Part shown: piece by piece, positions 12,950 through 15,714 of the stretch
Layout: each line of letters starts with the position of its first letter
Position numbering within the stretch: position 1 is the first letter of the stretch
Origin: Chloroflexota bacterium
Lineage (GTDB): Bacteria > Chloroflexota > UBA11872
Direction: 5' to 3'
NCBI GenBank assembly: GCA_026707285.1
Contig: JAPOXD010000028.1
Coordinates: 24,350-88,349 of the forward strand
Length of the DNA stretch: 64,000 nt
Notes under the pieces: generated by a model
Database searches by the model: none
What the model saw: the letters and a program-made list of their open reading frames with translations, nothing else
Told to the model about the DNA's origin: nothing
Made by a program: the position numbers and the translations under genes

Positions 12950-14809
12950 TTAGGGTGAGCTGGCCCCGCAAACCGGTATTCCGAGCTCGTCAACGTCGTT
13001 GTTCTCGACTCCGAGCAACCCATCGGGGACGCACCCCGTGAACTGGTTGTCGCCGACGAGGTATAGCCACTTCAGTCTTGGCAGCTGCCCAAGCTCAGGC
13101 GGAATGGCGCCACCAAGCTGATTGCCGTCGAGCCGCAGGAACGTCAGATTGGAGAGCTTGCCCAGCTCAGGTGGAATTGGACCGCTCAACTCGTTGCCGT
13201 TGAGCCACGCCCAATCTAGTCTGGCGAGATTGCCCAGTTCGGGCGGTATCGCCCCGGTCAATCGGTTGTGCTGGAGCCCCAGCACTAGCAGCCTGGAGAG
13301 ATTGCCCAACTCGGCCGGAATCGCCCCGCTCAGCCGGTTGAAGCCGAACCCCAGCCAGACCAGGTTGGAGAGTCGACCCAGCTCGGACGGAATCGCCCCA
13401 CTTAGCTCGTTGTCTTGGAGCTCCAGGTCTTTCAAGCTGGCGAGCCCACCGAGCTCGGGCGGGATGGAACCCGACAGTTGGTTGTGTTCGAGTTTCAGAG
13501 AGCTGAGCGTCGAGAGTTTTCCCAGCTCGGGAGGGATCGGCCCTGTCAACAGGTTGTTGTAGAGATGAAGCAAGCTGAGGTTGCCGAGGCTGCCCAGTTC
13601 GGGGGGAATCGCCCCACTCAGCAGGTTGTCGGGGAGATGGAGCGACCTCAGATTGGCAAGCCGGCCGAGTTCCGGCGGAATCGGTCCCCGCAAATGGTTC
13701 TTGCCGAGAAACAAACTCTCAAGGCTGGCTAGGTAGCCCAATTGCCACGGGATCGCACCGCTGAGGTTGTTGTCCGCAAGCGAGAGCCTTATGACCCGGT
13801 CGCCGTCCGTGCCGACGCCGTGCCATTCGCTGATGGGCGCCGCGCTCAGCCAGTTGGTGTTGTTCGTCCAGTTTGGGCCGTCGGTGGCGTGGTAGAAGTC
13901 GATCAGCACCTGCCAATTAGGCAGCCAGGCCGGACGCGGCTCGGGCGCTGGCGTCGGCGTGGATGCAGGAGTGGGGGCTGGCGTTGATTCGGGAGTCGGC
14001 GTGCGCGTGGGGACCGGCGTCGGAATGGGCAGGGTAAACGCCGGCAAGCTCGAAATCTCGGCTCGCAGCACCGGCGCCTTCGCCGCGTCCGGGATGATCA
14101 CGTTGCTCAGCTTCTTCACCTTGTCGGGCACGTTTTGCAGGTTCGCCCGGCCCACCGTGGTCCCGGGTGCCGGCACGTTCCAAATCACGAACACCGTGCG
14201 TTGGGCGCGCAGCATCTGCAGGCCGCGCGGATGACCTCCGGCCTCCCGCTCCTCGTACCGGATCGGCAGCCCGTACAGGTTCAGCCAATCGGGCTCGCTG
14301 AGAAATCGCTCCTTGATGGTTGGGTTTTGATCCAGGAGCAGCAGGTGGTTGCGCTTGATCGTGGCGAAGTCGGCCCCCCGGTCCGCAGCCAACTCGAGAT
14401 GCGCCGGGACGTTTGGCAATTCCACCTCCGGATACCGGTTCGCCAGGACATCAAGCGTGTTGTAGTAGTTCATGCGCTGCTTGCCGGGGTCCCACTGGAG
14501 GATCACCTTGTGGAAGGCCTGGAGGGTGAACGGGCCATTGACCCAGCGCTGGCTGATGGGATATCCGAGGGCCTGGAGGTCGCGCTCCCGCACGAAGTCC
14601 CAGAGCGGCACGCCGTCGGCGTTGGTGACCGCGAAACCGTCGTCGGGATCGCTCGTATCGCCGCCGGTGATGGTGAAGAGACAGCCTTCGTCCAGGGCGA
14701 TGCCCTCGCACTCCAACGCCGCCACTGACGGCCAGACAATCAGGGCGGCAGTTGCGGCGATGGCGAACACTGCGAGCACGACACGCAGGCGTCGGCTCCA
14801 GCCACTCAC
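12950..14809 (-). CDS. Secreted leucine-rich repeat protein (paralog of 10049..12805, single LRR block)
   Basis: 619 aa. Signal or TM anchor, then an N-terminal domain about 80% identical to its paralog, a PT-rich linker, an LRRNT_2-like cap (WQVLIDFYHATDGPNWTNNTNWLSAAPISEWHGV) and about 12 plant-type LRRs. The GTG start overlaps the upstream gene's TGA (GTGA). Confidence 0.8.
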   Translation of the reverse strand: MSGWSRRLRVVLAVFAIAATAALIVWPSVAALECEGIALDEGCLFTITGGDTSDPDDGFAVTNADGVPLWDFVRERDLQALGYPISQRWVNGPFTLQAFHKVILQWDPGKQRMNYYNTLDVLANRYPEVELPNVPAHLELAADRGADFATIKRNHLLLLDQNPTIKERFLSEPDWLNLYGLPIRYEEREAGGHPRGLQMLRAQRTVFVIWNVPAPGTTVGRANLQNVPDKVKKLSNVIIPDAAKAPVLRAEISSLPAFTLPIPTPVPTRTPTPESTPAPTPASTPTPAPEPRPAWLPNWQVLIDFYHATDGPNWTNNTNWLSAAPISEWHGVGTDGDRVIRLSLADNNLSGAIPWQLGYLASLESLFLGKNHLRGPIPPELGRLANLRSLHLPDNLLSGAIPPELGSLGNLSLLHLYNNLLTGPIPPELGKLSTLSSLKLEHNQLSGSIPPELGGLASLKDLELQDNELSGAIPSELGRLSNLVWLGFGFNRLSGAIPAELGNLSRLLVLGLQHNRLTGAIPPELGNLARLDWAWLNGNELSGPIPPELGKLSNLTFLRLDGNQLGGAIPPELGQLPRLKWLYLVGDNQFTGCVPDGLLGVENNDVDELGIPVCGASSP

Positions 14810-15714
14810 GAAACCAACTCACTGAGCCATGGACCGGCCCAGTAGATGATGATCACCGCGGCGGCCAGCCAGCCGACGACGGCAGCCTGGATCCCGCGGT
14901 CGCGCAGCAGCACGGTTGTCGGGTCCCACAGGCCTTCGCCGCTGAACGCGCGCAGCATGAACCGCGTGATTCCATACAGCACGAACGGCACCGTGAACAC
15001 GAGCCCGCGACCGCCAAACTGCGCCGCCGTCTCCGGCGCGAGGCTGTAGATCGCATAACAGACGACCACCGTCGCGCCCACCAGGACGATCACGGCGTCG
15101 ACGACCTCCGGCGGCACGTCGTTCCAGGTTCGCCGGAGGCCCCGAGCCTGTGCATCCGCCTGCGTCAATTCGGCACGCCGCTTGCCCAGCGAGATAAGGA
15201 GGGTCAAGAGAAACGTGCACAGGATGAGCCAGCCGGAAAATGGAACCGAAATGGCCACCGCTCCGGCAATGGCGCGCAGGACAAATCCCGCGGCAACCGC
15301 CATGCCATCCAGGAATGCCACCCGCGAGAGCCACAGGCTGTAGACCACGTTGAGCGCGAAATAGCTGCCGAGGACGACCACGACGCCTGTGCCAAGCAGG
15401 GCGGACAACCCCACGGCCAGCGCCCCCAATACAACACCGGTTGCAACGGCAGTTGCACGATTGAGTCGTCCCGCGGCCACCGGCCGGCGCGCCTTGTGAG
15501 GGTTTCGACGGTCGCGTTCGGCATCGACTGCGTCGTTGATGAAATACACGCCGGACGCCAGCGCGCAGAAGATGGCGAACATGGCCACGGCGCGCAGCAC
15601 GTCGCCGCCGTCGGTGAGCCGTTGCGCAAAGACGAGCGGCGCCAGCACGACGACGTTCTTCAGCCACTGGGCCGGCCGGGCCGTCGTGAGCAGCGCGGCA
15701 AGTTGCTGGGTCAT
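14806..15714 (-). CDS. Decaprenyl-phosphate phosphoribosyltransferase-like UbiA-family prenyltransferase (Rv3806c-like)
   Basis: Strong motif-level similarity to mycobacterial DPPR synthase: QWLKNVVVLAPLVFA, YFINDAVDAERDRRNPHKARRPVAAG, VLRAIAGAVAISVPFSGW, LGKRRAEL. Has multiple TM helices. Confidence 0.75.
   Translation of the reverse strand: MTQQLAALLTTARPAQWLKNVVVLAPLVFAQRLTDGGDVLRAVAMFAIFCALASGVYFINDAVDAERDRRNPHKARRPVAAGRLNRATAVATGVVLGALAVGLSALLGTGVVVVLGSYFALNVVYSLWLSRVAFLDGMAVAAGFVLRAIAGAVAISVPFSGWLILCTFLLTLLISLGKRRAELTQADAQARGLRRTWNDVPPEVVDAVIVLVGATVVVCYAIYSLAPETAAQFGGRGLVFTVPFVLYGITRFMLRAFSGEGLWDPTTVLLRDRGIQAAVVGWLAAAVIIIYWAGPWLSELVS

What the first reader, a model, noticed from the sequence alone, without database searches (positions are those of the whole stretch)
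12950..15714. Rv3806c-like DPPR synthase translationally coupled to two tandem secreted LRR proteins
The UbiA-family decaprenyl-phosphate phosphoribosyltransferase (14806..15714) ends with a TGA that overlaps the GTG start of the first LRR gene (GTGA at 14806..14809). A second LRR paralog follows after a 144-nt spacer, on the same minus strand. In mycobacteria DPPR synthase commits decaprenyl-phosphate to arabinan precursor synthesis. Here it looks co-transcribed with large secreted receptor-like LRR proteins, which suggests an envelope glycolipid or glycan system with dedicated extracytoplasmic binding partners. I do not know of this gene linkage being described.
Basis: partly seen in the sequence, partly recalled or inferred. 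Interest (0 to 1): 0.75.

Follow-up and report, generated by a model that had tools for sequence, protein, structure and literature searches.

The report
Strain-variable LRR genes beside phosphoribosyltransferase
A conserved cell-envelope enzyme gene in a probably sponge-associated Chloroflexota bacterium is followed, in this strain and one related lineage only, by an optional cassette of secreted leucine-rich-repeat surface proteins, so the neighbourhood is real but not a dedicated enzyme-plus-partner system.

Summary
A 302-aa UbiA-family ORF (14806..15714, minus strand) ends in a TGA that overlaps the GTG of a 619-aa LRR ORF. A 918-aa paralogue follows after 144 nt.

The enzyme is DPPR-synthase-like. 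M. tuberculosis Rv3806c is its only solved relative (33% identity). Eight of ten PRPP/Mg/pyrophosphate-contact residues are identical. It scores just below both NCBIfam DPPR-synthase cut-offs, and the 64-kb window holds no DprE1/E2, phosphatase, flippase or GT-C partner.

The linkage is not conserved. Eight related Chloroflexota lineages share the order aconitase|UbiA|[x]|2TM|DUF72|SecF|SecD. Six have no LRR gene at [x], one has one, and the window has two. Two genomes 96-98% identical in their flanks differ only by this cassette. No other UbiA locus has an adjacent LRR gene, and 0 of 79 loci encoding the LRR proteins' N-domain carry the UbiA.

New here: the unannotated N-terminal domain models at pLDDT 96. 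Its best structural match is the LGFP cell-wall-binding domain of C. glutamicum MytA. In distant homologues it is fused to peptidoglycan hydrolases and proteases.

Most likely reading: a core enzyme gene plus an optional cassette of wall-anchored, eukaryotic-like LRR proteins expressed off its transcript.

The parts
14806..15714 (-). Gene for a polyprenyl-phosphate phosphoribosyltransferase (DPPR-synthase-like, UbiA superfamily), 302 aa. It is a conserved core gene of the lineage.
   Evidence: PF01040 at E 2e-19. Best NCBIfam models are the DPPR-synthase models NF008977 (222.2 bits, cut-off 234) and NF008978 (201.3 bits, cut-off 207); other prenyltransferase models score 47 bits or less. The only PDB hits are Rv3806c entries 8j8j/8j8k, E 4e-33. 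Functional residues are conserved. The gene is present at 78-96% identity in all eight syntenic relatives.
14806..14809 (-). GTGA overlap of the UbiA stop codon (TGA) and the LRR1 start codon (GTG).
   Evidence: Direct reading of the sequence. L014 has the equivalent ATGA overlap. LRR-less relatives keep a 7-17 codon remnant ORF starting at the same overlap.
14717..14809 (-). LRR1 signal peptide (aa 1-31, MSGWSRRLRVVLAVFAIAATAALIVWPSVAA|LE).
   Evidence: Read from the translation: basic n-region, hydrophobic core, AxA-like cleavage site. This is an inference; no signal-peptide predictor was available.
14057..14716 (-). LRR1 N-terminal LGFP-like domain (aa 32-251). It has two LGFP-like units (LGYP... 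and YGLP...) around a helical insert and is a putative cell-wall-binding module.
13919..14056 (-). LRR1 Pro/Thr-rich linker (about aa 252-297).
   Evidence: Read from the translation.
12950..13918 (-). LRR1 capping motif followed by about 11 plant-type 24-residue LRRs and a Cys-containing C-terminal cap, plus the stop codon.
   Evidence: Pfam LRR_1, LRR_8, LRR_4 and LRR_14. Motif spacing is 24 residues.
12806..12949 (-). 144-nt spacer between LRR1 and LRR2.
   Evidence: No terminator-like or sigma-70-like site was found, and the fold is not more stable than shuffled sequence, z -0.18.
10049..12805 (-). LRR2 paralogue, 918 aa: signal peptide (aa 1-40), LGFP-like N-domain (aa 41-260), Pro-rich linker, LRR block 1 (14 or more repeats), then a second cap and LRR block 2 (about 5 repeats).
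   Evidence: Its 3' flank is homologous to the 3' flank of the single LRR gene of L014.
9901..14805 (-). The strain-variable segment (both LRR genes plus spacers). The closest LRR-less relative, L009, has 95 bp in its place.
   Evidence: blastn of the window against L009: flanks are 91% identical and homology breaks at window 14806 and 9900.
9891..9899 (-). GGGTAGAAT box (-10-like), invariant in all relatives, 26 nt upstream of the 2TM gene start. It is the likely promoter of the next transcription unit and marks the distal edge of the cassette.
   Evidence: Invariant columns in the alignment of 8 genomes. It occurs once in the window. Its promoter function is inferred.

Best explanation
What is shown. 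A single, conserved gene for a DPPR-synthase-like polyprenyl-phosphate phosphoribosyltransferase sits between aconitase and a 2TM/DUF72/SecDF block. This order holds throughout a Chloroflexota lineage that is probably sponge-associated. Directly after its stop codon lies a strain-variable cassette with 0, 1 or 2 copies of a gene family. The family encodes a signal peptide, a divergent LGFP-like domain, a Pro/Thr linker and plant-type 24-residue LRRs. The window carries the two-copy state.

What is inferred. (1) The cassette has no recognisable promoter of its own. It is expressed by read-through from the UbiA promoter, and the 4-nt overlap translationally couples LRR1 to UbiA. (2) The proteins are exported by Sec. 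(3) The LGFP-like domain attaches them non-covalently to a cell-wall glycopolymer, the linker acts as a stalk, and the LRR solenoid is displayed as a binding surface. This is an internalin-like layout. (4) They act as 'eukaryotic-like' host- or particle-interaction proteins of the kind described for sponge symbionts. (5) The enzyme separately makes polyprenyl-P-(5-P)-ribose for an unidentified envelope glycan. The adjacency is therefore historical, the LRR cassette using the UbiA transcript for its expression, and not a sign of a dedicated enzyme-partner pair. Remnant ORFs in LRR-less genomes suggest the LRR gene is ancestral at this site and has been deleted repeatedly.
For: Enzyme identity. 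Mapping onto Rv3806c residues described in PMC10994848 gives R22/K28/Y70/N73/D77/K87/R90/Y138 = R13/K19/Y57/N60/D64/K74/R77/Y125 identical, Y157->F144, and K143->S130 with R131 adjacent.

Core versus accessory: the synteny Acn|UbiA|[x]|2TM|DUF72|SecF|SecD holds in L006/L014, L007, L089 and L009-L013. There is no LRR gene at [x] in six lineages and one in L014. L014 and L007 are 96-98% identical in flanking DNA and differ by 2626 bp versus 50 bp at [x]. The window differs from L009 by 4905 bp versus 95 bp.

Remnant 5' codons in LRR-less genomes.

No general linkage: only L014 among the genome loci has an adjacent LRR. Immediate neighbours of 50 distant UbiA homologues are heterogeneous and include no LRR family among the listed ones. 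None of 79 N-domain loci (844 kb) contains a DPPR-like UbiA. Paralogues lie elsewhere: L090 holds 3-4 N-domain+LRR genes with a DDE transposase among them, and L091 holds an N-domain+RCC1 gene.

LRR proteins as postulated host-interaction factors of sponge symbionts: PMC6306507. The closest metagenome homologues of the N-domain come from the Sarcotragus foetidus sponge metagenome LXNI.

Composition: the cassette has lower G+C (0.636-0.638) than its flanks (0.68-0.70) and lower GC3 (0.79-0.80 versus 0.86-0.91 in Acn, 2TM and DUF72).
Confidence: 0.6

Rival explanations
1. The UbiA enzyme and the LRR proteins form a dedicated envelope system. The enzyme commits polyprenyl-phosphate to a pentofuranose (ribose/arabinose) glycan, and the co-expressed LRR proteins are its extracytoplasmic binding partners. 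In the refined version their LGFP-like domains anchor specifically to that glycan.
For: The 4-nt overlap is conserved in both cassette-bearing lineages. Remnant ORFs indicate an ancestral linkage. The N-domain's best structural match is the LGFP domain, which in C. glutamicum binds peptidoglycan-arabinogalactan (PMC11299179). L008 has an N-domain gene 7 kb from a UbiA homologue.
Against: Six of eight syntenic lineages keep UbiA without any LRR gene. The cassette is present or absent between genomes 96-98% identical in their flanks. No adjacent LRR gene occurs at about 70 distant UbiA loci. None of 79 N-domain loci has UbiA. N-domain/LRR paralogues are dispersed. No DprE1/E2, phosphatase, flippase or GT-C gene lies in the window.
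Confidence: 0.1
2. The LRR proteins are released effectors and not wall-anchored surface proteins. In this model the N-terminal domain is a lectin or host-glycan-binding or delivery module, and the LRRs act on host (sponge) targets after secretion.
For: NCBIfam's best partial matches for the LRR region are type III effector families (XopAC, XopAE, XopL), all far below cut-off. LRR and other eukaryotic-like proteins of sponge symbionts are postulated to mediate host interaction (PMC6306507). There is no covalent anchoring motif or transmembrane segment after the signal peptide (read from the translation).
Against: Distant homologues fuse the N-domain to peptidoglycan hydrolases (Peptidase_M23, Amidase_3) and HtrA-like proteases, which is typical of self-wall-targeting modules. 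The best structural match is a wall-binding domain. The window holds no secretion-system genes.
Confidence: 0.2
3. The cassette is a recently acquired mobile or horizontally transferred islet inserted at a hot spot after UbiA, and the overlap with the UbiA stop arose by chance.
For: The cassette has lower G+C and GC3 than its flanks. A DDE transposase lies inside a paralogue cluster in L090. The cassette is present or absent among near-identical genomes.
Against: No transposase, integrase or repeat boundaries were seen in or next to the window cassette. LRR-less genomes retain in-frame 5' codons of the LRR ORF at the same overlap, and L014 shares both junctions with the window. Together these favour an ancestral gene with later deletions or recombinational exchange.
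Confidence: 0.1

Closest known systems
M. tuberculosis Rv3806c (UbiA, decaprenyl-phosphate 5-phosphoribosyltransferase; PDB 8J8J/8J8K)
   Same: Same length (302 aa) with a full-length alignment at 33% identity. It is the only solved relative found. The Mg2+, phosphoribose and pyrophosphate contact residues are conserved, including K28 and Y70, which the structure paper says are not shared with ordinary UbiA prenyltransferases.
   Different: The window protein scores below both NCBIfam DPPR-synthase cut-offs. K143 is not conserved in place. There is no Rv3807c-like phosphatase, DprE1/E2, flippase or Emb/Aft-type GT-C nearby. The host is a Chloroflexota bacterium with unknown lipid carrier and unknown end product.
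Three-component pentofuranose glycosylation systems (Citrobacter youngae ORF15 PPPRS + MATE flippase + GT136 GT-C; Kelly et al. 2024, PMC11127046)
   Same: The first enzyme is the same kind: a PRPP-dependent polyprenyl-phosphate phosphoribosyltransferase. The window protein also matches NF006088, a model whose UbiA part follows an extra N-terminal region, at 172 bits.
   Different: The window gene has no fused or adjacent phosphatase, flippase, epimerase or GT-C. It stands alone in a housekeeping neighbourhood.
LGFP repeats of Corynebacterium glutamicum mycoloyltransferase A / PS1 (PDB 6SWZ, 6SX4; Pfam PF08310)
   Different: The window domain has only two units separated by a helical insert, sits at the N-terminus, and has a conserved Cys pair. 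The window sequence has no Pfam hit, and the profile finds no PDB sequence. The phylum differs, and ligand binding is untested.
Eukaryotic-like LRR proteins of marine sponge symbionts (e.g. Bayer et al. 2018, PMC6306507)
   Same: These are secreted LRR proteins in a Chloroflexota lineage whose closest homologues come from sponge metagenomes. The family is multi-copy and variable between strains.
   Different: The domain architecture (LGFP-like anchor + PT linker + plant-type LRR) and the position after a UbiA gene are not described in the papers read here.
Listeria internalins (InlA/InlB): LRR domain plus a cell-wall-association module
   Same: The layout is the same in principle: signal peptide, LRR binding domain, and a separate module holding the protein on the wall. 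The comparison rests on own knowledge. NCBIfam internalin_A gives a partial match far below cut-off.
   Different: The domain order is reversed, with the anchor N-terminal. The LRR type differs (24-residue plant-specific versus 22-residue internalin type). The anchor differs (LGFP-like versus LPXTG or GW). There is no homology outside the generic LRR.

Membership tests
DPPR synthase / polyprenyl-phosphate phosphoribosyltransferase (UbiA superfamily) | UbiA-superfamily membrane protein domain (PF01040) | tested here: met
   PF01040 scores 70.2 bits against a cut-off of 34.2.
DPPR synthase / polyprenyl-phosphate phosphoribosyltransferase (UbiA superfamily) | Score above the curated NCBIfam equivalog cut-offs for decaprenyl-phosphate phosphoribosyltransferase | tested here: not met
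   NF008977 scores 222.2 against 234, NF008978 scores 201.3 against 207, and NF008976 scores 147 against 474. These are the best-scoring models by a wide margin, but all fall below their cut-offs.
DPPR synthase / polyprenyl-phosphate phosphoribosyltransferase (UbiA superfamily) | PRPP, Mg2+ and pyrophosphate contact residues of Rv3806c (R22, K28, Y70, N73, D77, K87, R90, Y138, K143, Y157) | tested here: met
   Eight of ten are identical. Y157->F is a substitution that also occurs in some mycobacteria. K143->S has an invariant Arg at the next position.
DPPR synthase / polyprenyl-phosphate phosphoribosyltransferase (UbiA superfamily) | Catalysis of phosphoribosyl transfer from PRPP to a polyprenyl phosphate | not testable with these tools
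   This needs an enzyme assay.
Decaprenyl-phospho-arabinose (DPA) pathway / three-component pentofuranose systems | Companion genes: phospholipid phosphatase, DprE1/DprE2 or another epimerase, flippase, GT-C glycosyltransferase | tested here: not met
   None lies within the 64-kb window or in the syntenic relatives' flanks. The rest of the genome could not be searched.
Leucine-rich repeat proteins, plant-specific (24-residue) class | Tandem LxxLxLxxNxLxGxIP repeats with a 24-residue period | tested here: met
   Pfam LRR_1, LRR_4, LRR_8 and LRR_14 score above their cut-offs. Regex motif spacing is 24 residues, with 9 matches in LRR1 and 18 in LRR2.
LGFP repeat (PF08310) cell-wall-binding domains | Significant match to the Pfam LGFP model | tested here: not met
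   The window N-domain has no Pfam hit even at E 10. Five of 49 homologues hit LGFP weakly, best E 0.0032.
LGFP repeat (PF08310) cell-wall-binding domains | Fold of the LGFP unit as in MytA (helix plus 3-4-stranded antiparallel sheet, repeated) | tested here: inconclusive
LGFP repeat (PF08310) cell-wall-binding domains | Binding to cell-wall polymer | not testable with these tools
   Support is only indirect: homologues are fused to Peptidase_M23, Amidase_3 and trypsin/PDZ domains.
Eukaryotic-like proteins of sponge symbionts | Encoded by a sponge-associated bacterium | tested here: inconclusive
   Relatives are Chloroflexota MAGs, one named RHO3_bin_74. The closest metagenome N-domain homologues are in LXNI, the Sarcotragus foetidus sponge metagenome. 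The window's own sample accessions could not be traced in the literature.

The most novel reading that the evidence does not exclude
The LGFP-like N-domain family (about 1000 sequence clusters, with no Pfam model) is a wall-anchoring module that recognises a pentofuranose (ribofuranose or arabinofuranose)-containing secondary cell-wall polymer. The lone DPPR-synthase-like UbiA supplies the lipid-linked donor for that polymer. Under this reading the ancestral UbiA-LRR overlap in these Chloroflexota would be a relic of a real functional pairing, analogous to SLH domains and CsaB, or to LGFP domains and arabinogalactan in Corynebacteriales. It would imply an arabinogalactan-like or ribofuranan wall polymer outside the Actinomycetota.
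Probability: 0.1. Interest if true: 0.7.

Novelty: new variant of a known kind. Interest (0 to 1): 0.35.

Why it matters
The gene linkage that drew attention is an optional, strain-level feature and not a conserved system, so it should not be taken as evidence for a new glycolipid-receptor module. Two things remain useful. First, DPPR-synthase-like phosphoribosyltransferases with intact PRPP-binding residues are conserved core genes in an uncultured Chloroflexota lineage without any nearby pathway partner. This points to an uncharacterised polyprenyl-phosphoribose-dependent envelope glycan there. Second, the LRR proteins carry a large, unannotated, confidently modelled domain family distantly related to LGFP wall-binding repeats. 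That gives a concrete hypothesis for how 'eukaryotic-like' LRR proteins of sponge symbionts are displayed on the cell surface. It also provides a marker for finding surface proteins in these uncultured bacteria.

Tried and rejected
1. AF2 model of the N-domain from the 25-sequence alignment of close homologues: pLDDT 52. It was discarded. A 49-sequence alignment built from the exhaustive profile search gave pLDDT 95.9.
2. Fold search against afdb50: the library was not available.
3. Profile of the N-domain against PDB sequences: only a spurious 15-bit hit.
4. Sigma-70 promoter and intrinsic-terminator scan of 9500..16200: no promoter-like sites, and terminator-like sites at background level. 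The two intergenic spacers fold no better than shuffled sequence. This is uninformative about operon structure in this phylum.
5. Literature search for the sample, contig and MAG accessions: nothing found. Only LXNI could be traced, to a sponge metagenome.
6. The listing of cluster members for ten distant N-domain homologues: only one organism name, an 'Actinobacteria bacterium' MAG, so the taxonomic range of the family remains unresolved.
It was repeated with an 8-sequence alignment.
8. Generic UbiA/MenA reading of the enzyme: rejected. All non-DPPRS NCBIfam prenyltransferase models score 47 bits or less, apart from NF006088 (172 bits, annotated only as a UbiA family prenyltransferase), and no other UbiA-superfamily structure passes E 1e-3.
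9. Assembly artefact: rejected, because the junction is present in independent assemblies.
10. A conserved DPA-type operon around distant homologues: immediate neighbours are heterogeneous. They include a few GT-C (TMEM260-like, PMT_2), LPG_synthase_TM, GT1, HAD and epimerases, with no dominant partner.
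Full report
OBSERVATION. The three ORFs exist as described, all on the minus strand. They are a 302-aa ORF at 14806..15714, a 619-aa ORF at 12950..14809 and a 918-aa ORF at 10049..12805. The minus strand reads tcGTGAgtggc at the junction, so the TGA of the first ORF and the GTG of the second share GTGA at 14806-14809. The spacer between the second and third ORFs is 12806..12949, which is 144 nt. All three have the codon-position G+C pattern of real genes. 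Pfam assigns UbiA (PF01040) to the first and several LRR families to the other two. The two LRR proteins are paralogues with 63% identity over 597 aa. The window is part of ENA metagenome contig ERZ27276916:k141_54708 (152,637 bp). Four contigs from other samples that encode the identical UbiA protein also run into the start of the LRR gene, so the junction is not an assembly artefact.

THE ENZYME. Among NCBIfam models the best hits are the three 'decaprenyl-phosphate phosphoribosyltransferase' equivalogs: NF008977 (222.2 bits, cut-off 234), NF008978 (201.3, cut-off 207) and NF008976 (147, cut-off 474). A related model, NF006088, scores 172 bits. Every other prenyltransferase model scores 47 bits or less. 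The only solved structures detectable by sequence are M. tuberculosis Rv3806c entries 8J8J/8J8K (E 4e-33), aligned over residues 5-286 of 302 at 33% identity. The structure paper (PMC10994848) names the Mg2+ ligands (N73, D77), the 5-phosphoribose contacts (K28, Y70, Y157) and the pyrophosphate cluster (R22, K87, R90, K143, Y138). It states that the phosphoribose contacts are not shared with ordinary UbiA prenyltransferases. Mapping through the HMMER alignment gives R13, K19, Y57, N60, D64, K74, R77 and Y125 identical. Y157 becomes F144, a change the paper also reports in some mycobacteria. K143 becomes S130, next to an Arg (R131) that is invariant in the clade. The protein is therefore very probably a PRPP-dependent polyprenyl-phosphate phosphoribosyltransferase. 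It is not shown to be a decaprenyl- or arabinan-specific orthologue, and it falls just short of the curated family cut-offs. The gene calls across the 64-kb window show transaldolase, DprA, SecDF, DUF72, aconitase, HNH, peptidases, ABC transporters, solute-binding proteins and metal-homeostasis genes. No DprE1/DprE2-like, PAP2/HAD phosphatase, flippase or GT-C gene is present.

IS THE LINKAGE CONSERVED? A scan of one genome per species found seven close relatives, all annotated as Chloroflexota MAGs, plus about 70 distant homologues from many phyla. Together with contigs found by exact-protein look-up, eight lineages share the order APH|DUF2344|HNH|aconitase|UbiA|[x]|2TM|DUF72|SecF|SecD. Their UbiA is 78-96% identical to the window's. 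At [x], L007, L089, L009, L010, L011, L012 and L013 have only 80-160 nt. L006/L014 (chromosome OZ253558.1) has a single LRR gene of about 815 aa. The window has two. L009 is the window's closest relative (96-98% protein identity in flanking genes, 91% DNA identity) and lacks the cassette; window 9901..14805 (4905 bp) corresponds to 95 bp there. L014 and L007 are 96-98% identical in flanking DNA and differ by 2626 bp versus 50 bp at this site. This is a presence/absence polymorphism between near-identical genomes. In L014 the LRR gene starts with an ATG overlapping the UbiA TGA (ATGA), the same architecture as in the window. Its 3' flank matches the 3' flank of the window's LRR2. The LRR-less genomes keep a 7-17 codon ORF starting at the same (A/G)TGA, encoding M-[S/N]-x-x-R-W-R/P, which resembles the first codons of the LRR genes (MSDRWR in L014, MSGWSRR in the window). 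The simplest history is an ancestral LRR gene at this site, tandem duplication in the window's line, and deletion in most others. Recombinational gain cannot be excluded.

BROADER TESTS. A phmmer search with the LRR region and with the N-terminal domain against all ORFs of the 88 loci then held found adjacent hits only in the window's own contigs and in L006/L014. It also found one N-domain-only gene 7 kb from the UbiA of L008 and one weak LRR hit 7 kb away on the opposite strand in L077. A Pfam census of the immediate neighbours of 50 distant UbiA homologues is heterogeneous. It includes LPG_synthase_TM, TMEM260-like and PMT_2 GT-C enzymes, GT1, STAS, HAD and epimerases, and no LRR family among the 25 listed. 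In the reverse direction, 79 metagenome loci (844 kb) that encode an N-domain homologue contain no DPPR-like UbiA at all. In related genomes the N-domain/LRR family occurs elsewhere. L090 carries three to four such genes with a DDE transposase among them, and L091 carries an N-domain fused to RCC1 repeats next to a MacB-type ABC transporter.

THE LRR PROTEINS. Both begin with a typical Sec signal peptide, read from the translation: a basic n-region, a hydrophobic core and a cleavage site at VAA|LE or AAA|LE. A domain of about 220 aa follows, with no Pfam or NCBIfam match. Next come a Pro/Thr-rich linker, a capping motif, and 24-residue repeats of the plant-specific LRR type. LRR1 has about 11 repeats. 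LRR2 has 14 or more, followed by a second cap and about five further repeats. A word-indexed search found only 104 relatives of the N-domain, all from metagenomes and Chloroflexi MAGs, some fused to LRR or RCC1 repeats. An exhaustive profile search found 987 cluster representatives (699 at E<=1e-10). The domain is mostly N-terminal in them and sometimes C-terminal. In a sample of 78 proteins (76 of these representatives plus the window's two), the domain is combined with trypsin/PDZ proteases, Peptidase_M23, Amidase_3, GH5 cellulase, PD40 propellers, LTD, Peptidase_M1, GH113 and others. A module shared by secreted peptidoglycan hydrolases, proteases and binding domains is what one expects of a wall-targeting domain. 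This is an inference from general knowledge of LysM, SH3b, SLH and LGFP modules.

ECOLOGY. The relatives are Chloroflexota MAGs, one of them named RHO3_bin_74. The closest N-domain homologues among WGS/JGI metagenomes (71-75% identity) lie in LXNI01, which is the Sarcotragus foetidus sponge metagenome. LRR, ankyrin and TPR 'eukaryotic-like proteins' are a described feature of sponge symbionts, including sponge Chloroflexi, and are postulated to mediate host interaction (PMC6306507). The window's own sample accessions could not be traced, so sponge origin remains an inference.

MECHANISM. Shown: a core phosphoribosyltransferase gene and a variable downstream cassette; a conserved 4-nt overlap where the cassette is present; an invariant -10-like GGGTAGAAT box (9891..9899) before the next gene, which marks a separate downstream unit. 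Inferred: the cassette is transcribed from the UbiA promoter, and LRR1 is translationally coupled to UbiA. The proteins are exported, held on the wall by the LGFP-like domain, and display their LRR solenoids for host or particle binding. The enzyme independently supplies polyprenyl-P-ribose-5-P for an unidentified envelope glycan, as in the systems reviewed by Kelly et al. (PMC11127046), whose other components are not nearby here. Simple promoter/terminator scans and folding of the spacers were uninformative.

RESIDUAL NOVEL READING. The one characterised LGFP domain binds a wall polymer whose arabinan derives from the DPPR-synthase product. Here an LGFP-like domain gene was apparently ancestrally fused, at the level of the operon, to a DPPR-synthase-like gene. 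This could mean that the anchor recognises a pentofuranose-containing polymer made via this enzyme. The dispersal of the family and the dispensability of the cassette argue against a dedicated pair. They do not exclude a shared wall polymer. I give this about 10%.

VERDICT. It is not supported on its central claim of a dedicated, novel enzyme-partner system. The finding is a strain-variable cassette of LGFP-like-anchored LRR proteins behind a core gene. The useful by-product is the recognition of a large unannotated LGFP-like domain family.

Noticed in passing
window 50136..57043 (-): Three tandem paralogous family-5 solute-binding proteins (686, 681 and 704 aa). After the signal sequence each carries a low-complexity stretch of about 100 aa made of VVKEVPVE/KEVEVIKEV-type repeats that is almost identical between the copies.
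   Followed up: no
window 58641..60353 (+) and 63093..63992 (-): Extremely His/Asp/Glu-rich stretches occur in three places: a small ORF, the N-terminus of a cation-efflux-like membrane protein, and a repeated DADEEGDHGDE block in a ZnuA-like binding protein. They lie next to ABC transporter genes at 61433..63096 and a Cu/Zn superoxide dismutase at 60654..61334. Together these look like a metal-homeostasis cluster.
   Followed up: no
window 9891..9899 (-); aligned positions in L007, L009-L014: The box GGGTAGAAT(T/G)CCGCCCG is invariant, 26 nt upstream of the 2TM (PF13239) gene start, in all eight related genomes, while the surrounding spacer is variable. It is probably the promoter -10 region of the 2TM-DUF72 unit.
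   Followed up: partly
L007 10906..10960, L009/L011/L013 about 8906..8940 (locus coordinates): Genomes without the LRR cassette keep a 7-17 codon ORF that starts at the (A/G)TGA overlap with the UbiA stop. It encodes M-[S/N]-x-x-R-W-R/P, resembling the first codons of the LRR genes. This is a likely deletion scar.
   Followed up: partly
L090 1..9047: A related Chloroflexota contig (1.48 Mb) carries three to four N-domain+LRR paralogues in a cluster with a DDE transposase gene between them. It lies next to rhamnosidase and sugar ABC transporter genes.
   Followed up: partly
window 41359..43168: A stretch of about 1.8 kb between two of three paralogous ABC exporter genes (39505..41358, 43169..44959, 44956..46755) had no ORF passing my length and GC3 filter. 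It may hold a degraded or frameshifted fourth copy.
   Followed up: no
L008 17966..19132 (-): In a contig whose UbiA is 49% identical to the window's, an N-domain-only homologue (368 aa, no LRR) lies 7 kb from the UbiA gene, directly beside a trypsin/PDZ protease gene. This is the only other UbiA/N-domain co-localisation seen.
   Followed up: partly
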